Below are positions 21,939 to 62,640 of a stretch of 64,000 nt of DNA, piece by piece. Below the pieces are notes generated by a model. That model ran no database searches, was not told the origin of the DNA, and saw nothing but the letters and a program-made list of their open reading frames with translations. The stretch covers positions 40,982,001-41,046,000 of the forward strand of contig OX597814.1 in assembly GCA_951406725.2 (NCBI GenBank). The letters are read 5' to 3'. The stretch's first letter is position 1, and the number at the start of each line of letters is the position of its first letter. Both the position numbers and the translations under genes were made by a program. The stretch is from Octopus vulgaris. Its lineage: Eukaryota.

Positions 21939-22045
<107 letters not shown>

Positions 22046-22089
22046 TGTGGTGTGTGTGTGTACAGATATGTATATTATATGTATATGTA

Positions 22090-23454
22090 TCTCTTATTAT
22101 AAAAGGCAGATTTTATCTGCCTCCCTTTGGGAGTTATAGAAATCTACAATATAGGATTTCTTCAATTACAATTTACCTGGCATTTTGAGAGTACAATGCA
22201 TCGCGTCATGCCAGGTCCAGTTTTTAAAATTTAAACTCCAATTAAGCAAAATTTACAGAAAACTCACATTCTGGTGTGTGTGTCAAATGCTTTTCTTAGT
22301 CTGGTTTACACCACACGCAAACGCACACACACACAAAGGGAGCGAATTGTTTCACTGACGCTATCACCCTTCTCCTCCTTTGTCTTTGCAAGTTGGCAGC
22401 TATTAAAGTGAAAACAGTGAATCCGACAGCGATAAAGAAAACGAATTGGTACCTGAATGGAGTGAAAATTTAAAAACTGTTTCTTTCGGTGAGTTTTCTG
22501 AAGAAACTGGAGCCACAGACTTTCCCAGAAGAGTAAAGCCTTAGACTATTTCTATTTACTTTTTCGAATGAGCCTATTTGAAATCATTACGCTAAACGTA
22601 AACAAACCGAAAGAAAGGATAGTTTGTTATTTCCCACAACCTTAAATGAAATTAAGGCCTATTTTGCCATAAATATTATTATGGGTATCAGAAAGTTACC
22701 CAGAATAACAAATTCTATCGTAAAATTTTGTTGTATACCCAATTGAATATTAGCTAATAACCCATTTTCTATAGCGATGTTTGAACAAAATTTTAATAAT
22801 TTTACAGAAAGTTACCCAGAATAACAAATTCTATCGTAAAATTTTGTTGTATACCCAATTGAATATTAGCTAATAACCCATTTTCTATAGCGATGTTTGA
22901 ACAAAATTTTAATAATTTTACAGAAAGTTACCCAGAATAACAAATTCTATCGTAAAATTTTGTTGTATACCCAATTGAATATTAGCTAATAACCCATTTT
23001 CTATAGCGATGTTTGAACAAAATTTTAATAATTTTACAGAAAGTTACCCAGAATAACAAATTCTATCGTAAAATTTTGTTGTATACCCAATTGAATATTA
23101 GCTAATAACCCATTTTCTATAGCGATGTTTGAACAAAATTTTAATAATTTTACAGAAAGTTACCCAGAATAACAAACGAGCCCTTCTGGGTATTAGCGCG
23201 CGTCTACGATGAGTCTACGATTTAAAAAACAATTACCATCATATTTTTCCATTTTAATGCATTTTTTTCGCTTTTATATAAGGGAAGTAACTCTCTAAAA
23301 ATATCTACGATGTGTCAACGATTTAAAGAAAAATTTACCTTAATTTTTTTTCAATTTTTAATGCATTTTTTGCTACTTTTTGGCTATAACTCTCTAAAAA
23401 TGCTTATATAGTTATTTCCCTTACAACCCGAGCAACGCCGGGCGATACTGCTAG
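22090..23454 (+). mobile_element. Non-autonomous Helitron with intact termini
   Basis: A|TC 5' end at 22090, subterminal hairpin CCCGAGCAACGCCGGG, CTAG|T 3' end at 23454, no TSD. Confidence 0.88.
22689..23176. repeat. 116-bp tandem repeat, ~4.2 apparently identical copies, inside the Helitron
   Basis: CAGAAAGTTACC starts at 22689, 22805, 22921, 23037 and 23153. Confidence 0.95.
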
Positions 23455-23697
23455 TATATATATAAAAATATATTTAATCAATATAGGGTGCCAAAAAAAT
23501 TTTGTAGAATTCTTTTGCCACCAGCGGCCTAGTGGGAAAAAATTAAATAGTCATAAACCATTTTTAAGTTCAACATCACAATCAAGGAACGGCCATAATA
23601 GGCCATTCACCCACTAGAAATAACAGCCAAAAGCTTTAACCGCAAAATAACATCAATTCCGTAAACCAGGAGAAAATTAAAAAACATTTACCCTGTA

Positions 23698-23804
23698 ATT
23701 TCTTAGACGATGCACCGTTTCATCTACTGTTTAATGGTAAACTAACCTGATTAAATTAAATCAAGCCAATCCACCATAGGCCCTTAGATTCATCAGTAAG
23801 AAAT
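23698..23804 (-). ncRNA. Type I hammerhead ribozyme, array copy 1
   Basis: AUUUCUUA-CUGAUGA-AUCUA...UAGAU-GAAA-CGGUGCAUCG-UC-UAAGAAAU. Confidence 0.9.
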
Positions 23805-24188
23805 AGCCAAGTCGGAACAGATATTTTTCACGAGGTATTCTCGTTGCTACCTCGGCAATATCTGACCTAAAATTTTCAAATCGTCGCACTCACGCCAAAT
23901 TTATCGGCAGCAAATAAATATAAGCCGCCGATTCCATTACGGAATTAACCAGAAAATTCATAATTAATCAATATAGGGTGCCAAAAAAAATTTTGTAGAA
24001 TTCTTTTGCCACCAGCGGCCTAGTGGGAAAAAATTAAATAGTCATAAACCATTTTTAAGTTCAACATCACAATCAAGGAACGGCCATAATAGGCCATTCA
24101 CCCACTAGAAATAACAGCCAAAAGCTTTAACCGCAAAATATCATCAATTCCGTAAACCAGGAGAAAATTAAAAAACATTTACCCTGTA

Positions 24189-24295
24189 ATTTCTTAGACG
24201 ATGCACCGTTTCATCTACTGTTTAATGGTAAACTAACCTGATTAAATTAAATCAAGCCAATCCACCATAGGCCCTTAGATTCATCAGTAAGAAAT
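24189..24295 (-). ncRNA. Type I hammerhead ribozyme, array copy 2
   Basis: Same intact core and helices as copy 1. Confidence 0.9.
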
Positions 24296-24675
24296 AGCCA
24301 AGTCGGAACAGATATTTTTCACGAGGTATTCTCGTTGCTACCTCGGCAATATCTGACCTAAAATTTTCAAATCGTCGCACTCGCGCCAAATTTATCGGCA
24401 GCAAATAAATATAAGCCGCCGATTCCATTACGGAATTAACCAGAAAATTCATAATTAATCAATATAGGGTGCCAAAAAAATTTTGTAGAATTCTTTTGCC
24501 ACCAGCGGCCTAGTGGGAAAAAATTAAATAGTCATAAACCATTTTTAAGTTCAACATCACAATCAAGGAACGGCCATAATAGGCCATTCACCCACTAGAA
24601 ATAACAGCCAAAAGCTTTAACCGCAAAATATCATCAATTCGTAAACCAGGAGAAAATTAAAACATTTACCCTGTA

Positions 24676-24782
24676 ATTTCTTAGACGATGCACCGTTTCA
24701 TCTACTGTTTAATGGTAAACTAACCTGATTAAATTAAATCAAGCCAATCCACCATAGGCCCTTAGATTCATCAGTAAGAAAT
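24676..24782 (-). ncRNA. Type I hammerhead ribozyme, array copy 3
   Basis: Same intact core and helices. Confidence 0.9.
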
Positions 24783-25155
24783 AGCCAAGTCGGAACAGAT
24801 ATTTTTCACGAGGTATTCTCGTTGCTACCTCGGCAATATCTGACCTAAAATTTTCAAATCGTCGCACTCGCGCCAAATTTATCGGCAGCAAATAAATATA
24901 AGCCGCCGATTCCATTACGGAATTAACCAGAAAATTCATAATTAATCAATATAGGGTGGCAAAAAAATTTTTTTTTTGCCACACGATATTGATTAATTAT
25001 GAATTTTCTGGTTAATTCCGCAATCGAATCGGCGGCTTATATTTATTTGCTGCCGATAAATTTGGCGCGAGTGCGACGATTTGAAAATTTTAGGTCAGAT
25101 ATTGCCGAGGTAGCAACGAGAATACCTCGTGAAAAATATCTGTTCCGACTTGGCT

Positions 25156-25262
25156 ATTTCTTACTGATGAATCTAAGGGCCTATGGTGGATTGGCTTGAT
25201 TTAATTTAATCAGGTTAGTTTACCATTAAACAGTAGATGAAACGGTGCATCGTCTAAGAAAT
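25156..25262 (+). ncRNA. Type I hammerhead ribozyme, array copy 4
   Basis: CTGATGA at 25164-25170; 8-bp helix I; 5-bp helix II base; GUC site with predicted cleavage after 25254. Confidence 0.9.
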
Positions 25263-25648
25263 TACAGGGTAAATGTTTTTTAATTTTCTCCTGGTTTACT
25301 GAATTGATGTTATTTTGCGGTTAAAGCTTTTGGCTGTTATTTCTAGTGGGTGAATGGCCTATTATGGCCGTTCCTTGATTGTGATGTTGAACTTAAAAAT
25401 GGTTTATGACTATTTAATTTTTTTCCCACTAGGCCGCTGGTGGCAAAAGAATTCTACAAAATTTTTCTTTGCCACCCTATATTGATTAATTATGAATTTT
25501 CTGGTTAATTCCGTAATGGAATCGGCGGCTTATATTTATTTGCTGCCGATAAATTTGGCGTGAGTGCGACGATTTGAAAATTTTAGGTCAGATATTTTCG
25601 AGGTAGCAACGAGAATACCTCGTGAAAAATATCTGTTCCGACTTGGCT

Positions 25649-25755
25649 ATTTCTTACTGATGAATCTAAGGGCCTACGGTGGTTTGGCTTGATTTAATTT
25701 AATCAGGTTAGTTTACCATTAAACAGTAGATGAAACGGTGCATCGTCTAAGAAAT
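25649..25755 (+). ncRNA. Type I hammerhead ribozyme, array copy 5
   Basis: Intact core; predicted cleavage after 25747. Confidence 0.9.
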
Positions 25756-26137
25756 TACAAATTAAATGTTTTTTATTTTTCTCCTGGTTTACGGAATTGA
25801 TGTTATTTTGCGGTTAAAGCTTTGGCTGTTATTTCTAGTGTGTGAATGGCCTATTATGGCCGTTCCTTGATTGTGATGTTGAACTTAAAAATGGTTTATG
25901 ACTATTTAATTTTTTCCCACTAGGCCGCTGGTGGCAAAAGAATTCTACAAAATTTTTTTTGCACCCTATATTGATTAATTATGAATTTTCTGGTTAATTC
26001 CGCAATCGAATCGGCGGCTTATATTTATTTGCTGCCGATAAATTTGGCGCGAGTGCGACGATTTGAAAATTTTAGGTCAGATATTGCCGAGGTAGCAACG
26101 AGAATACCTCGTGAAAAATATCTGTTCCGACTTGGCT

Positions 26138-26243
26138 ATTTCTTACTGATGAATCTAAGGGCCTATGGTGGATTGGCTTGATTTAATTTAATCAGGTTGG
26201 TTACCATTAAACAGTAGATGAAACGGTGCATCGTCTAAGAAAT
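26138..26243 (+). ncRNA. Type I hammerhead ribozyme, array copy 6
   Basis: Intact core; predicted cleavage after 26235. Confidence 0.9.
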
Positions 26244-26627
26244 TACAGGGTAAATGTTTTTTAATTTTCTCCTGGTTTACGGAATTGATGTTATTTTGCG
26301 GTTAAAGCTTTTGGCTGTTATTTCTAGTGGGTGAATGGCCTATTATGGCCGTTCCTTGATTGTGATGTTGAACTTAAAAATGGTTTATGACTATTTAATT
26401 TTTTCCCACTAGGCCGCTGGTGGCAAAAGAATTCTACAAAATTTTTTTTGACACCCTATATTGATTAATTATGAATTTTCTGGTTAATTCCGTAATGGAA
26501 TCGGCGGCTTATATTTATTTGCTGCCGATACATTTGGCGCGAGTGCGACGATTTGAAAATTTTAGGTCAGATATTGCCGAGGTAGCAACGAGAATACCTC
26601 GTGAAAAATATCTGTTCCGACTTGGCT

Positions 26628-26734
26628 ATTTCTTACTGATGAATCTAAGGGCCTATGGTGGATTGGCTTGATTTAATTTAATCAGGTTAGTTTACCATTA
26701 AACAGTAGATGAAACGGTGCATCGTCTAAGAAAT
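26628..26734 (+). ncRNA. Type I hammerhead ribozyme, array copy 7
   Basis: Intact core; predicted cleavage after 26726. Confidence 0.9.
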
Positions 26735-26929
26735 TACAGGGTAAATGTTTTTTAATTTTCTCCTGGTTTACGGAATTGATGTTATTTTGCGGTTAAAGCT
26801 TTTGGCTGTTATTTCTAGTGGGTGAATGGCCTATTATGGCCGTTCCTTGATTGTGATATATATAAATATATGTATATATATACATATATATATGCATATA
26901 TATATATATATATATATATGCGTGTGTGT

Positions 26930-27130
26930 GTCTCTCTTCCTTTGTCACCCACCAACGCTTAACAACCGAAGTTGGAATATTAGCGTCCCCGTAAAATAGC
27001 AGTTCGCCCCCAAAAAATAAAACGATAGGATAAGTACTAACATTGCAAAAATAGGTCCTGGAGTTGATATGTTCGACTAAAGGTGGTGCTCCAGCATAGC
27101 CAAAGTGAAATGACTGAAATAAATAAAAGA
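26930..27130 (+). mobile_element. SINE family 2, 3' part
   Basis: Tail CGACTAAAGGTGGTGCTCCAGCATAGCC...AAATGACTGAAA, as in 59158-59558. Confidence 0.8.
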
Positions 27131-27755
27131 ATATATATGTGTGTGTGTGTGTGTATGTGGGAGTGTGCCTGTGTGTGTGCGTCTCTGTGGGTGTGTATGC
27201 GTGTGCGTGTGCGTGTGTTTGTGTTAGTTCCAATGTGTACAAAGAACATACAAAATATATTGAAGAAATTTATCATCATTAAGCTTATTAATGTTGGCTG
27301 TTTGGCTCGACAAAAATTGCATTATCTTGTATGAAAGTAATCAAAGTATTACATCTGTCATTAATTGGTATTTAAGCATTTTATGTTGTGCGCAATATGT
27401 GTAGATATCAAATGAGATTTATATATTTGCGAAAAATTTATTTTAAATTAATAGATTGTTTTATTTTGAATGTTGATGTTATTTTGTTATTATGAATAAT
27501 TAATATGAATCTGAAAAATAGTTTTTCTATCTTTTTTTTTATTTTTCTGTCTGTCTGCATCTATGTCTGTCTCTCTTACTGTCTGCCTGTCTATCTATCT
27601 ATCTATCAATTTATCTATCCACCTATCTATCTATCTACATATGTGTGTCTATGTGTGTTTGTGTCTCTTTATATGTGTATGTGAATATATGTATACATAT
27701 CACTGTATAGAGGTATCTATACGTCTACCTAACTTTCTACCTATGTATCTATCTG

Positions 27756-27805
<50 letters not shown>

Positions 27806-27832
27806 AATCTATCAATGTGTCTCTCTCTCTCT

Positions 27833-27871
<39 letters not shown>

Positions 27872-27874
<3 letters not shown>

Positions 27875-28000
27875 TCGAAATTTAGAAAAAACAAAAGACG
27901 ATGACAGATTTGAAGCTCGGGAAGATGAGAAAGTATTTTACGTTTCGAGCCTACGTCCTTCAACACAAAAGGATACGCGTATATAAACAGACAGAGAATA
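27872..28000 (-). mobile_element. Short pLTR-like repeat (family B) with a decayed hammerhead-like motif at ~27935-27970
   Basis: Minus strand GTGTTGA-AGGACGTAGGCTC-GAAACGTA; homologous to 38840-38990 and 57030-57160. Confidence 0.55.
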
Positions 28001-44917: not shown

Positions 44918-46220
44918 CTTAAATCCTGAAATCATTTAAAATGTTTTAGCCCGAAGGCCGCGGCCATGCTGGGGCACCACCGCTGAATGAGCTACACTAA
45001 TATGTGAATCCACCTCTGATACGTGACACTTGATCAACAAGGGAGTTCAATGCTGCTGCCCGCATCTGCGTCTCCTGTCGTGAGGTAGGTTCATCTGGGA
45101 CTCCCAACAAGAAGAGATCCAGTTTAGTTTTAAAGAAACCCACACCCACACTATGTAAGTCTCTCAGGCATTTAGGGAGGATGTTTAAGAGCTGTGGTCC
45201 TCTGAAACCCAAGCTGTTGCAGCATCTGGACCTGTATTTTGATGGTGATGTTGGAATCTTTGGCACCATGCAGTGGCGCCCCGTTCTGCAGTTGGGGTAA
45301 CTTTGAATGCCAAAATTTGGGACAAGACCCTCCAGGATTTTCCAGATGTATATCACCGCATATCTCTCCCGCCTCCGCTCTAGGGAGAAGAGGTTTTATA
45401 CTTTTAGTCTTTCCCAGTAGCTGATATTTTGCATTGAGACGATTTTCTTTGTGTAGCTTCTCTGAATTGCTTCGAGTTCTGCTGTTAGTTTTATATTGTG
45501 TGGTGACCATAGTTGGGAGCAGTAGTCCAAGCTGCTGAGGACGAATGTTCGGAGTATCCATCCAGCTAGCCGTCTGCATTTTATCACCAGATTATTAATA
45601 TGCACTTGGAAATATGCATCATTGCTCATGTCAATGCCAGGTCACGCACTGATTTTGACTCAGGGATTGCAATTCTTCCTGGGCCAGTATATCCAGTCTG
45701 CACGTCGTTTACCTTTGTGTGCCGGTGGCGCAGGGTCTGGAATTTACCTGCATTAAACTTCATGTTGTTGTCCTCAGCCCACCTGTATATTGTGTCCAAT
45801 TCCTTTTGCAGATGCGCAATATTTTCAGGGTTTTGTATTCTGTGGGAGACTTTTGTGTCATCTGCATAGCTAGCAAGGGTGGCCATCGTAGCAAATGAAG
45901 GCATGTCTGAAAGGGCTACTATGAACATCAGTGGCCTCAAGACAGTGTCCTGTGGGATACTGCTTGTTATTTGTGCTTCGTTGGAGGTGGCTCCATTGCT
46001 CACAACTGCCTGTCTTCTCTCTTTTAGGAAGTTGTGCAGCCACTCTCCAAGTTTCTCGCCTATGCCGAGACCACGCAATTTGTGACAGATCATACCATGG
46101 TCAACTTTATCAAAGGCTTTTGCAAAGTCGAGATTTATTACATCCACCTTTGAGCCATTTAGTAGTTGTTTCAACAGCCAGTCATAGTGTTGCAGGAGCT
46201 GTGTTAGGCAGCTTCTAACC
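44918..46220 (-). mobile_element. CR1-group LINE, 5'-truncated (RT domain to 3' UTR)
   Basis: RSCLTQLL, LDFAKAFDKVDH, YADDTKV, KFNAGKFQ, LDYCSQLWSP, IYIWKILEGLVPN; frameshifted. Confidence 0.93.
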
Positions 46221-46410
46221 GTTGGCGATTTTTTTCCTCCGTCTTCCCTTTCTTGGATCATTCCTTTTCCTATGTTTCTGACGAAGAGCTCCGCTCGAAA
46301 GGTTAATTCCTCCTTCTTTCTTTCCTTTCCTGAGCGTCCAATAACACTATACTTGTTCCACGTCCTCGCGTTGTGTTTTCTCTTTGTGTTTTCTTGTTTG
46401 GATTAACTTT
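46220..46410 (+). mobile_element. Family A pLTR-like repeat with a hammerhead-like motif at 46274-46306
   Basis: GTTT-CTGACGA-A-GAGC-TCC-GCTC-GAAA-GGTT; homologous to 3779-3962. Confidence 0.7.
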
Positions 46411-52139: not shown

Positions 52140-53975
52140 TTGGATGTGTTAGAAACAAAGTAGAGTAAATAAACTACAGAAGATTTGTATTATATGGTTG
52201 AAAATATATTAAAATAGGCATGTTAGGAATAAAATATAAAATTTCAAGTGTAGTGATATTGTTTTGGGAAAAATGACCGGATTTTTGTATTTTCTTTTCA
52301 AATGTCTCAAATTTCTTTAACGATGTCATCTTTTCGTCATGGTCTGATGTAGAAGGGTTCGAAACAGGGGAGGTAATCCGGGATTTTTTCGGTATAAGGG
52401 AAATAATGAAAAATATTGGAAATATTTAGGTGTATTTAGTTTAATATGATATGGTTTTTATTGAATGAAGTGCTAGAAATGGTTAAGTTTGGGTTTATAT
52501 TTTTCTATGAGGTAAGATTCCTTATTTAGAAACGCTAGAAATGGTTAAGTTTTGGCTTATATTTTTCAATAAAATAAGTTTCCATCTGTAATCTAACTTG
52601 TGCTGATGTTCCAATAGGACATTGATAAAATGGAGAAATTACAAATTGTGGTATCAGTCGTTTTCCGCAACTGTCAATGTCTTCACGATAGGGTATAATT
52701 CTGTATTCTGAGAAGGCAATGTGCTGTCGGTGCAGAGTGCATCTGCGTCTGAGCGATAATCACGTGGGCCCTATGTAATTCTGGTAGCAGCCGGAGCATC
52801 CTACAACATATACCAGGTTTTCCGAAGTGCAAGCTAAGTCAGATTACATTGTTAATTTTTGTCCTTCTTTAAAAAGGAATTCTGCTGCTTCTATAATGAT
52901 GTGGCATGTTACGCATTTTAGTCCACCACATTTTGTCGTTTTTGAGTCCGTTATTTTAAAAAAGATTTTTGACTTTTGAGGATATTTTTTAGTGACTTCT
53001 GTTGTTTGTGGATTTTAATGTTCTTATGTGTGTGTGTATAATTTCCTATAGTTTGGAGATTTAATGTAACATTGGTAGATTTTGTGTGATGATGGTGGAG
53101 GCTTCTTTGTTTCTGGGTTTGTAAGTAGATATGTACGGTATTATTTGGGGGGAGAGGGAGTTGCTGCGTTGTAGTTTTATGAAGGCCTTTATGTCGATTT
53201 GTGTTGCACGTCTCATTCTAAGCTCTATAAGTTGAACTGCATAGTATCTATCAATAAGGGTGTTTTTGAGTTCTTACAGCCTAAATCGCTGGCATTTTTC
53301 TGACAGTATGGTGCATATCCTTCTTGCAAGGCTGAATGGGATGTTTGAGTTGGCGTGTCTTGGGTGGCACAAATTATATAGTAGATATTGTTTGGCGTCT
53401 GCGGTTTTGTAAAATATATCCGTTTCTACGTTTCGGCCTATATTGTTAAATATTATATCCAAAATCTGGAGTTTCTTCTGGTTGTATTCCATTGCGAATT
53501 ATATGTTATGGTTGACGCTGATCAATATTCTTTTGAATTCAAGGAGTTTATGTGTCTTTTCATTCCAGAAGATGAAACTGACGTCCAGCAATATTTTCCA
53601 ATTCCATTTTATGTATTAGAAAAGAGGGTTTCCAAAGGTAGGTAAAGATACCTGTTATATTCTTATTTCCAGGTAGCACATTATTACATTCACAATGCCC
53701 GAAGCTGCTCTAGTACCCATAGCAATTCCGGATTATTGTCGATAAAAAGTGTTACCAAACATAAAATTATTGTTCCGTAGGGTAAACTTAAATGACTATG
53801 AATTCTTTGCTAATCATTTCCGGTATTTCTTCCGGATATTGGTCCGGCCAGAACTGAACTGCCTCTCGTCTAAATTTGTGTGGTATACTGGTATATAAGC
53901 TATTCACATCAAATGAAACCTTGACCTTTTGGGGGGAGGTGATTTAACATGTCCAAGTCATCTCTGATATATTTC
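52140..53975 (-). mobile_element. Penelope-like element, decayed (RT plus GIY-YIG endonuclease)
   Basis: VSFDVNSLYTSIPH, GIAMGTRAAS, thumb ETDIFYKTADAKQYLLYNLCHPRH..NIPFSLARRIC, KCGGLKCVTC and CTSENLVYVVGCSGCYQNYIG. The left boundary is approximate. Confidence 0.92.
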
Positions 53976-60029: not shown

Positions 60030-60660
60030 AAAAGTTACGTAGATGACTGACTAATCCTAAGGACGCACAAATTGAGCAATCTATAGATTTCGAAAAATAA
60101 AATCACGATCATAAACAGCAATATAAACTTCACCATGGGATACAGTAAAACTCAACTATCGTTCCTGTATATACTAATCAGGAAAAGTGATAAAATCATT
60201 GAAACAGACATTCACTACAAACAAACCTACTCTATACAATAATTACTGTACTCCTCATGCCATCTGAAACATATGAAAAATAACATTCCCATGAATGTAG
60301 CAAGACGAATGTGCATAATTGTGTAAAACCCGAAACTAGCCATAAAAGACCAAAACAAATGCTATTTAAAAGATAAAATCCTTTGAAGTTAATAGACAAT
60401 GGAATAGAAGGTGCCGGAGCAATAAATATCCAAGAACTACGAAAAACAGACGCAGCGGGCAACCTACAAACATTTCTAAGACCAGTCTTCAGACGATCCT
60501 ATACCAGTCACAACCTATCCAAAATATATACTAATTTCTGTCATGAAGTCCCAATACAAATAAGGAAATCTCGAAACACCAGTCACAAGCAAGACAGCTG
60601 GCACATTAGCCACGTCTTTGCATTTCAACAATTTTGAAAATCATTGTAATCTGTGAAACC
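60030..60660 (+). mobile_element. Penelope-like RT C-terminal fragment
   Basis: SYVDD, FTMGYSKTQLSFL, IETDIHYKQT..Q*LLYSSCHLKHMKNNIPMNVARRMC, LIDNGIE. Confidence 0.85.
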
Positions 60661-61149: not shown

Positions 61150-62640
61150 AGGATATGAAAGTTTGAGTTTATACAGGAGACTTGGGGGTTGATCAGTGAA
61201 TGTAATTGTTTTATCTTAGGCGATGATCAGTGAATATGATATTCCTTATGTAATGGATGGTAAATATTTTATGCATTTTTTCATTCCGATATGTATGTTA
61301 AGTTCTGGTTTCTATTTTTCAATAAGTGTGACCTCTTTATCTAGTCGTTTTTGAGTTGATGTACTTTCCGTGCATTGACATAGTGAGAATATTGTGAATA
61401 GTGGCTGGTGTTCCTTAGCACATTTTACTATTGCACGTTTTATACCATTATCTATAAGCTAATTTAGGTAGTATCTGTCGACGAATACGTTTTTAAGTTC
61501 TTGTAGTCTGAGTTCTATGGTGGGCTTTCTGACAGTATACTGCAGGTTATTCTCGCTATATTGAATGGGATATTCATTTCCCTATGCCTCGTGTAGCATG
61601 AGCTAAATAACAGGTACTGTTTTGAATCTGTAGTTTTGTAAGATATGTCAGTTTCTATTTCTTACTTCATACTTTTGATTCGTATATCTAGAAAAGGGAG
61701 CTAATATCTGTTGTGTCACATTGTTAATTCTATATTTGTATTTATGCTACTGAGGAATCTTTTGAATTCCAAAAGGTTCTCCAAGTTCTCATTCCTTAGA
61801 TTGACATAATCAAACACATATTTTCCAAGTTTCCTTTATATATTGGGAAACTGGATTTCACAATTTTGTGAGTCATTTCTAATAAATTGTTAGTTCCAAA
61901 AGGCCTATTGTCAGGTTTGCAAATCACACTTTCTGTCTGTATGCAGTAGTGTCATACATGAAGTGATATTTCCGGAGAATAAATTTTAATGATTCAGTTA
62001 TGAACTCTTTGCTAATACATTCCATTATTTCTTCTGGATATTTTTCCATCCAGAACTGGGTGGCTTCTAGTCCATAATTATGGGATATGTTTGTATGCAG
62101 GTTAACAACACCAAAGGAGACCATATCTATTTTTCTTTTACTCTTTTTAGGAGGTGGTTTAGCATTCCCAAATCATTTCTAATGTAACATCTAATATATT
62201 TTAGAAGTGGTTTCAAGAAGGTGTCATTTAAGTAACACAGTCGGTGTTTTTTCAGGGGTTTGTCCAGCTAAAATGAACCTTAATTTAATGTCTCCTGGTA
62301 TTGCTACTTGTATGTATGTCTTCGTTGATTTTTTAATTGCTTCATTTATTATATGGCTTTTATAAATTTTCGGTAAGCCATAGATGAGTCTGGGTTTACA
62401 ATTAAAGTTAGTTATGTAGTCTTTTGCAGTTTTCGTAAGGCCCTTTCCGTGTAGTTGAAACATTTTTCATTATCCTTTTCGGATTGTCGTCTTCGATCTT
62501 TTCGTAGTAGTCTTCTTATTCAGCATGGATACTACTGGGTTTTTGTAGTAGTCCGCGTCTATCACGATTACCAGATTCCCTTTATCGGCTTATTTAATTG
62601 CTAATTCCTCATCAGTTTGCAATTTAATTAAATCTCTCTA
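61150..62640 (-). mobile_element. Penelope-like element, decayed RT
   Basis: IK*ADKGN, IYGLPKIYK, VSFGVVNLHTNISHNYGLEA, LPFLDI, ETDISYKTTDSKQYLLFSSC. Confidence 0.92.

What the first reader, a model, noticed from the sequence alone, without database searches (positions are those of the whole stretch)
24940..25000. The array inverts exactly inside the unit's own hairpin, and neither outer end is a cleavage site
Seen: the arms meet at GGTGGCAAAAAAA|TTTTTTTTTTGCCAC, i.e. within the GGTGGCAAAA...TTTGCCACC hairpin of the unit. Both arms point outward. They end about 230 nt (23474) and 130 nt (26857) downstream of a cleavage site, in AT microhomology with TA-rich flanks. Inference: both target ends primed reverse transcription at arbitrary points of a circular or multimeric RNA, rolled for 3-4 turns and were joined through the hairpin. 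This resembles twin priming and the inverted pLTRs known for PLEs. Any read-through transcript could also form ~1.5 kb of dsRNA, a likely ADAR or Dicer substrate.
Basis: partly seen in the sequence, partly recalled or inferred. Interest (0 to 1): 0.7.

Follow-up and report, generated by a model that had tools for sequence, protein, structure and literature searches.

The report
Retrozyme insertion with two fixed starts
This is one of hundreds of insertions of a 490-base repeat with a self-cutting RNA motif, and in its mirror-image copies the two outer ends nearly always sit at two different fixed points 105 bases apart, which likely means a Penelope-type reverse transcriptase copies one RNA from two preset start sites at once, one from each side of a DNA break.

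Summary
The array is as described: about 3.05 plus 3.85 head-to-head copies of a 490-nt unit with a type I hammerhead motif, between TA runs.

The "arbitrary priming" reading is refuted. The two outer ends are the family's two fixed termini, A (unit 490) and B (unit ~100-105). Of 120 inverted insertions examined, 109 are A+B, none A+A, none B+B. A sister family about 65-70% identical uses the homologous pair. The inner junction is what varies: the hairpin is a hot spot (33 of 200 inner ends, 17 expected), but both arms stop in it in only 3 of 100.

The two arms of an insertion share one template haplotype (69 of 80 identical, 4.2 expected). This is the inverted-copy-plus-tail signature of Penelope-like elements, with an unusually long 105-nt tail.

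Best reading: twin priming at two RNA-structure-defined sites, probably on a circular monomer. No autonomous partner was found, and no read was shown to span the junction. A new variant of a known kind and a good test substrate for Penelope-type insertion.

The parts
23474..24972 (-). Left ('B') arm: 3.07 units of the 490-nt hammerhead repeat; 3' end at family terminus B (unit ~101), inner end at unit 71
24970..26857 (+). Right ('A') arm: 3.85 units; inner start at unit 75, 3' end at family terminus A (unit 490)
24961..24978 (.). Head-to-head junction A7/T10, at the AAAA|TTTT mini-palindrome on the 3' side of the unit's hairpin loop; about 3 nt shared by both arms
23474..23574 (-). The 'tail': the 101-105 nt between terminus A and terminus B, present at the outer end of the left arm only
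   Evidence: unit position 1 = first base after terminus A
23455..23473 (.). Left TA-rich target remnant, directly after the CTAG end of a neighbouring high-copy element
26858..26919 (.). Right (TA)n target remnant
26628..26734 (+). Type I hammerhead motif, outermost right copy: stem I, CUGAUGA, long stem II, GAAA, short stem III around a TGCA palindrome, predicted cut GUC after 26726; same motif at 25164, 25657, 26146
   Evidence: no Rfam match at gathering score
23698..23804 (-). Type I hammerhead motif, outermost left copy, predicted cut at 23706; same motif at 24287 and 24774
25337..25480 (+). One internal copy of the predicted RNA structure around the two termini: a closing stem with three hairpins (terminus A at the loop of the middle one), then the GGTGGCAAAA...TTTGCCACC hairpin; terminus B follows about 15 nt later
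   Evidence: predicted; 3 of 38 pairs changed on both sides between two families

Best explanation
This is an insertion of a non-coding 490-nt hammerhead-motif repeat (a retrozyme) whose two arms end at two different fixed family termini, A and B, 105 nt apart, and it was likely made by a Penelope-like RT-endonuclease that primed reverse transcription from both ends of a break in (TA)n, one end at A and one at B, on one probably circular RNA. Shown: the anatomy, the strict A+B pairing, the TA targets, the variable inner junction, one haplotype across both arms and all turns, and conservation of both termini in a diverged sister family. Inferred steps: (1) self-cleavage and circularisation of a monomer; (2) binding of a Penelope-like protein, plausibly a dimer, to the structured A-B segment; (3) cutting of both strands in (TA)n and priming through 2-3 nt of AU pairing, one DNA end per site; (4) rolling for up to many turns with strand displacement; (5) stalling at variable points, favoured at the hairpin and U-run; (6) joining of the two cDNA 3' ends by microhomology, here AAAA/TTTT. 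Odds: real insertion about 0.95; made by Penelope-type machinery about 0.85; two primings rather than fold-back about 0.75; circular monomer as template about 0.55.
For: End pairing: 109 of 120 inverted elements are A+B, 0 A+A, 0 B+B, 11 have one other end (140 elements, 2 edge-cut ones dropped). In the 79 loci not chosen by their ends, 62 of 69 inverted are A+B, 0 same-end. 107 of the 109 have TA on both sides. Exact end-plus-TA patterns occur 418 (A) and 909 (B, includes the sister family) times, controls 0. Sister family: 19 of 20 inverted copies among 26 loci are A+B and none B+B, though all were found with a B-containing query (counted by eye). One template: arms differ at 15 of 2831 diagnostic sites within a locus against 32% between loci; 69 of 80 loci identical, 4.2 expected. 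Eight locus-private alleles are fixed in every unit of both arms in 7 loci (64 eligible); allele 229A is in all 7 window units that cover it and in one other unit among 70 loci. A is a start in its own right: single-arm A insertions with TA on both sides exist (L037, L095, L098, L101, L224). The A arm is longer than fold-back from B allows in 43 of 100, and 18 of 100 fit neither fold-back direction. The window's arms are not mirror copies. A young 781-aa RT + GIY-YIG element in the same genome also ends in (TA)n at two termini about 40 nt apart, with one of each in its two inverted copies L164 and L175. PMC11167929: a Penelope-like protein cuts and extends both strands at AT-rich DNA, is predicted to be a dimer, and starts at two internal RNA sites that bound the tail.
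Against: No autonomous element sharing the unit's sequence was found in 80 Penelope-like loci, so the enzyme is inferred. In vitro the anole protein showed no difference in start site between strands (PMC11167929), so strict pairing is not reproduced there. 13 of 100 insertions have the B arm equal to the A arm plus 105 nt (2.0 expected, maximum 9 in 5000 permutations), which fold-back explains as well as a shared stall does. The register test for one shared RNA molecule was inconclusive: 10 cross-arm shared variants in no consistent register against 215 singletons. Inner ends cluster just 3' of the predicted cut site (16 of 200 at 360-375, p 0.001, window chosen after seeing the data), which suggests that some templates were linear cleaved RNAs. 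The minimum-energy fold of the hammerhead region is not the active fold. Some long arms show period-2 or period-4 variants (L056; A1 and A3 in the window) that a monomer circle does not give by itself.
Confidence: 0.55

Rival explanations
1. The same two fixed primings, but on linear multimeric RNA (or on two RNAs from the same source array) rather than on one monomer circle; array length comes from the source array, template jumps or later DNA-level duplication.
For: Inner ends cluster just after the predicted cut site, and L218 has both arms ending at unit 360. Period-2 and period-4 variants in L056. The anole element uses unprocessed RNA and does not need its ribozyme in vitro (PMC11167929). 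A homogeneous source array also gives one haplotype in both arms.
Against: Private alleles fixed in all units of both arms and arrays with only 0.04-0.07% singletons over 3-5 kb (L042, L045, L114) need a monomer-to-multimer step close to the insertion. Few unit-specific variants are shared across arms (10 against 215 singletons). The hammerhead is kept with compensatory changes in two families.
Confidence: 0.22
2. One priming only: the cDNA folds back at a local palindrome, is copied back towards the start, and the second end is fixed by endonuclease resolution at the other terminus; asymmetric junctions come from later deletion of the palindrome centre. This follows the self-priming idea in PMC3846280 and the resolution idea for the tail in PMC8557442.
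For: 16 of 100 junctions are near-symmetric and 13 of 100 fit B = A + 105. Several sit on small palindromes or on the hairpin itself (L055, L089, L104, L117, L124). It explains one haplotype and strict A+B without a dimer.
Against: 84 of 100 junctions are asymmetric; 43 of 100 have an A arm too long for fold-back from B and 18 of 100 fit neither direction. Single-arm A and single-arm B insertions both exist. The window's arms share none of their unit-specific non-CpG variants. Both tail ends are RT start sites in vitro (PMC11167929).
Confidence: 0.16
3. The inversion in this window is an assembly or library artefact (fold-back read, or a join of two loci).
For: The junction is a near-perfect palindrome around an A7/T10 run, and the window's units carry more singletons (0.5%) than most of the 17 long loci compared.
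Against: The flanks differ and are not mirrored. The ends are B and A as in 108 other insertions, which a fold-back read cannot give. Both arms carry the near-private 229A allele, which a join of two loci would not.
Confidence: 0.04
4. One reading: both ends primed at arbitrary points of the RNA and were joined through the unit's hairpin.
For: The hairpin region is enriched among inner ends (33 of 200; 21 of 124 in arms longer than one unit, p 0.002), and L055 is joined across the whole hairpin.
Against: Outer ends are fixed. Both arms stop in the hairpin in 3 of 100.
Confidence: 0.02

Closest known systems
Metazoan non-LTR retrozymes (Cervera and de la Pena 2020, PMC7229834, passages seen; Li et al. 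bioRxiv 10.64898/2026.07.22.740005, parts 1-3 of 5 read)
   Same: Short non-coding tandem units with a type I hammerhead in each, low GC (about 36%), dispersed in hundreds of copies, proposed to be mobilised by Penelope-like elements through circular RNA.
   Different: The word 'inverted' does not occur in PMC7229834. The preprint's parts that I read treat origin and distribution, not insertion ends, and leave the mobilisation mechanism open. The unit is slightly above the 150-450 bp range of the 2020 paper but within the 51-972 bp range of the preprint. No homologous pLTR was found here, unlike 24 of 57 Xenopus families.
Insertions of endonuclease-positive Penelope-like elements: partial tandem, inverted 5'-truncated copy and tail (Craig et al. 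2021, PMC8557442; Arkhipova et al. 2013, PMC3846280; passages seen)
   Same: Head-to-head inversion, variable inner truncation, an extension at one end only, microsatellite targets, hammerhead in the repeated part, palindromes at some junctions.
   Different: Tail of about 105 nt rather than 30-40; no ORF; both arms can run for many units; the tail is called optional or 'often at one end' in those passages, whereas here no inverted insertion has it at both ends or at neither among the 109 with two recognisable termini.
Poseidon element of Anolis (PAc) in vitro (Frangieh et al. 2024, PMC11167929; parts 1-2 of 4 read)
   Same: Two internal RT start sites bounding the tail, AT-rich target, both strands cut and extended, start sites away from the ribozyme cut.
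   Different: Its sites are adjacent within one AC-rich stem-loop and were used alike by both strands. Here they are 105 nt apart, in AU-rich context, and one is used per arm.
LINE-1 twin priming (Ostertag and Kazazian 2001, seen only as described in passages of PMC10760644; geometry recalled)
   Same: Two cDNAs primed from the two target ends and joined by microhomology into an inversion.
   Different: No poly(A) priming; the second start is a fixed site, not a chance annealing site; the arms overlap in sequence instead of abutting on the RNA.

Membership tests
Metazoan non-LTR retrozyme | Type I hammerhead motif in every tandem unit | tested here: met
   7 of 7 window units that span the site; core invariant, with stems I-III changed on both sides in the sister family (read by eye). 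Rfam gave no match at gathering score.
Metazoan non-LTR retrozyme | Short non-coding monomer in tandem, low GC, no LTR | tested here: met
   490-nt period, GC about 0.36; the only frame of 150 aa or more touching the array is a simple-repeat frame at its right edge.
Metazoan non-LTR retrozyme | Dispersed, many copies | tested here: met
   636 exact hammerhead-core matches; 418 exact A ends.
Metazoan non-LTR retrozyme | Self-cleavage of the RNA | not testable with these tools
   Needs in vitro transcription; 8 of 9 predicted Xenopus elements did not cleave in the preprint.
Metazoan non-LTR retrozyme | Accumulation of circular monomer RNA | not testable with these tools
   Only contigs were served. 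The unit folds stably as a circle (z -5.1 against 30 shuffles), which is only suggestive.
Insertion made by EN+ Penelope-like machinery | Inverted 5'-truncated copy in head-to-head orientation | tested here: met
   120 of 140 elements; 60 of the 140 were picked mostly for having two arms.
Insertion made by EN+ Penelope-like machinery | Tail at one end (two fixed 3' termini) | tested here: met
   109 A+B, 0 same-end; length 105 nt, longer than the 30-40 nt described.
Insertion made by EN+ Penelope-like machinery | AT-rich or microsatellite target | tested here: met
   TA runs on both sides in 107 of 109.
Insertion made by EN+ Penelope-like machinery | Target site duplication | tested here: inconclusive
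   Cannot be read inside TA runs.
Non-autonomous derivative of a named Penelope-like element | Sequence homology to the pLTR of an autonomous element | tested here: inconclusive
   None in 80 loci from two searches; these are a small part of 6136 and 19467 first-look candidates.
Autonomous Penelope-like element | RT + GIY-YIG ORF | tested here: not met
   No such ORF in or joined to the array in the window or in 98 family loci.
LINE-1 twin-priming inversion | Poly(A) priming and a second, variable internal priming site with abutting arms | tested here: not met
   No poly(A); both starts fixed; arms overlap.

The most novel reading that the evidence does not exclude
Penelope-type insertion is obligate, programmed twin priming: an asymmetric ribonucleoprotein, probably a protein dimer on one structured RNA, assigns start site A to one end of a double-strand break and start site B to the other. 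On a ribozyme-made RNA circle both enzymes then roll for many turns. The Penelope 'tail' and 'inverted pLTR' would be one and the same event, and these retrozyme arrays would be the genomic record of two-ended rolling-circle reverse transcription in an animal.
Probability: 0.4. Interest if true: 0.75.

Novelty: new variant of a known kind. Interest (0 to 1): 0.5.

Why it matters
How Penelope-like elements make their tandem, inverted and tailed insertions is described as unresolved (PMC8557442, PMC11167929), and mobilisation of animal retrozymes by them is proposed but not shown (PMC7229834; bioRxiv 10.64898/2026.07.22.740005). This family gives more than a hundred young, countable events with a wide 105-nt spacing. 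They show strict pairing of two different start sites and one template haplotype per event, which any mechanism must explain. The short structured RNA is a ready substrate for an in vitro test.

Tried and rejected
Reads: the run search listed 21 runs, all as contigs; no RNA holder listed. Laying contigs on 22000-28000 and on 24880-25060 listed no piece with 31 letters on both sides of the junction and no empty-site joint; with high-copy repeats and cut tables this decides nothing. Run X1 has depth 13-15 over 24978-24998, where two locus-private letters lie, but may be the assembly's own sample. X13 (RNA is a guess) holds unit words and was not taken as evidence of expression.

Editing: among family copies A>G 10, T>C 16, G>A 65, C>T 41 of 217 singletons, and 1 A>G among 8 fixed private alleles: no ADAR trace in the DNA copies, which says nothing about the RNA.

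Partner search: the 781-aa element and other GIY-YIG loci share no sequence with the unit (local scores 24-32 against shuffles of 26-31). The hits in L131 and L274 are separate retrozyme copies, with no matching repeat downstream of the ORF. A search with the window's own broken Penelope fragment (52544-52933) did not run because of stop codons and was not repeated, so that lineage was compared only through its window flanks. Register test for one shared RNA: inconclusive. One search was an alignment with wrong coordinates and was discarded.

Literature: six searches ran. None listed a paper on strict pairing of two termini in retrozyme insertions; subscription journals are mostly missing, and no supplements were read (the preprint's are closed and may bear on end structure). 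PMC5785218 was not held. One search used 'octopus' as a guessed host; the host was not established. Earlier scan notes near this place or by sequence: none.

Full report
Observation. The window lies at G000:C1:40982001-41046000 in a 2.8-Gb, microsatellite-rich genome. Two arrays of a 490-nt unit meet head to head: 23474-24972 (minus, 3.07 units) and 24970-26857 (plus, 3.85 units). Each unit that spans the site has a type I hammerhead motif with a long stem II and a short stem III. Rfam gives no match at gathering score, and the minimum-energy fold is not the active fold. The outer ends are 232 and 131 nt past a predicted cut and run into TA. I numbered the unit from window 26368-26857, so the right end is position 490 and the cut follows 359. 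The left arm stops inside at 71 and the right starts at 75, at an AAAA|TTTT palindrome on the 3' side of the hairpin loop. The hairpin's 5' stem is not in the junction.

Family survey. I fetched 138 other regions: 39 by similarity to a whole unit, 20 with a B pattern only, 19 with an A pattern only, 20 with both patterns close together, and 40 picked mostly for multi-unit arms on both strands. With the window this gave 140 elements after dropping 2 cut by a region edge. 120 are inverted: 109 have terminus A on one arm and terminus B on the other, none has A+A or B+B, and 11 have one other end. In the 79 loci not chosen by their ends the count is 62 A+B of 69 inverted. 107 of the 109 have TA on both sides. 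112 of 125 A ends map to 490 and 93 of 123 B ends to 105; positions are uncertain by a few bases because the ends share AT with the target. Of the 20 single-arm elements, one (L086) belongs to the sister family, and two (L069, L084) carry an 8-9-nt A stub below the detection limit. Exact end patterns occur 418 and 909 times, controls 0. The window's two outer ends are therefore the family's standard pair.

Inner junctions. In 100 simple A+B insertions the inner ends spread over the whole unit. The hairpin (49-90) holds 33 of 200 (17 expected, p 2e-4; 21 of 124 in arms longer than a unit, p 0.002), and both arms stop there in 3 of 100. 16 of 200 fall just after the predicted cut (p 0.001, window chosen after seeing the data). 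16 of 100 junctions are near-symmetric, and 13 of 100 have B = A + 105 nt (2.0 expected). The A arm is too long for fold-back from B in 43 of 100, and 18 of 100 fit neither fold-back direction. In the window A is 385 nt (490 minus 105) longer than B.

One template. The family has many haplotypes, but one insertion has one. Arms differ at 15 of 2831 diagnostic sites within a locus against 32% between loci, and 69 of 80 testable loci are identical (4.2 expected; 20 of 100 lacked enough overlap). Eight private alleles are fixed in all units of both arms in 7 loci. In the window all 7 units that cover the site carry 229A, seen in only one other unit among 70 loci. Its arms are not mirror copies. 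A test for a shared register was inconclusive. Some long arms show period-2 or period-4 variants, so later duplication, gene conversion or multimeric templates also occur.

Sister family and structure. L086 led to a 494-nt family about 65-70% identical by eye (local score 193 against 30 for shuffles). It has homologous termini, TA targets and 19 A+B among 20 inverted copies in 26 loci (counted by eye). The hammerhead core is invariant and its stems change on both sides. This is one comparison between two families, not independent events.

Enzyme. The genome holds many GIY-YIG loci (148 scored matches), among them a young 781-aa RT + GIY-YIG family. It has a cysteine motif before the nuclease like that described for the Neptune and Nematis clades (PMC8557442). 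It inserts in (TA)n with two termini about 40 nt apart, one of each in both inverted copies seen. It shares no sequence with the unit, and no partner was found in 80 loci. Penelope-type mobilisation rests on the insertion signature.

Mechanism. Best reading (0.55): twin priming at two preset, structure-defined sites on one probably circular RNA, rolling, variable stalling and microhomology joining. Rivals: the same on linear multimers or two RNAs from one source (0.22); fold-back plus endonuclease resolution with later central deletion (0.16); artefact (0.04); arbitrary priming (0.02). That Penelope-type RTs lack RNase H and could displace strands, and that DNA palindromes suffer central deletions, is recalled knowledge. 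Public contigs neither confirmed nor refuted the junction.

Comparison. It works like an endonuclease-positive Penelope-like insertion and files as a metazoan non-LTR retrozyme on the features that could be tested; cleavage and circles were not testable. The inverted copy and one-sided tail are in print (PMC8557442, PMC3846280; passages). The tail as the span between two RT starts is in print too (PMC11167929; parts 1-2 of 4). A Penelope origin of retrozymes is argued in bioRxiv 10.64898/2026.07.22.740005 (parts 1-3 of 5). PMC7229834, PMC11722881 and PMC10760644 were seen as passages. Six searches listed nothing on strict A+B pairing, a 105-nt tail or one haplotype across both multi-turn arms; supplements were not read. 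Earlier notes of this scan report the same pattern for other families; they are leads, not support.

Verdict. The feature is probably real (about 0.95) and typical of its family. New variant of a known kind; interest 0.5.

Noticed in passing
window 22090-23454: High-copy young element with TC...CTAG ends, a 3' hairpin and an internal 116-bp tandem repeat (22689-23176), in a TA context; Helitron-like by recalled features. It ends about 20 nt from the array's left end. 40 scored copies of its 3' part are 98-100% identical.
   Followed up: partly
L086, L180-L208: Sister 494-nt hammerhead family about 65-70% identical, with homologous A and B termini and the same inverted anatomy.
   Followed up: yes
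L162:768-5490 and L159-L175: Young Penelope-like family with a 781-aa RT + GIY-YIG frame, preceded in full copies by an overlapping 479-aa frame with no convincing Pfam match; about 500-nt pLTR, 40-nt tail with a small hairpin, (TA)n target.
   Followed up: partly
window 52544-53971 (-), 61429-62634 (-), 60030-60323 (+): Broken Penelope-like RT/GIY-YIG fragments, 37-52% identical to the 781-aa protein over the long matches.
   Followed up: partly
window 45626-46402 (-): 258-aa open frame that looks like a LINE-type reverse transcriptase fragment (recognised by eye, not scanned).
   Followed up: no
window, right arm units 1 and 3 (about 25021-25025 and 26003-26007); right arm unit 2 (25463-25951): Two private substitutions 4 nt apart are shared by non-adjacent units, and unit 2 carries about 10 private changes; gene conversion, a period-2 template or consensus error are possible.
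   Followed up: partly
L056, L225: Very long single-haplotype arms (11 and 18 units); L056 shows period-2 and period-4 variants that suggest block duplication.
   Followed up: partly
L218, L223, L082: Arms whose inner end lies at the predicted ribozyme cut (unit 359-360); in L218 both arms do, after different numbers of turns.
   Followed up: partly
L032, L035, L082, L088, L112 junctions: Short templated duplications or fillers at several inversion junctions, as from repeated re-annealing during joining.
   Followed up: no
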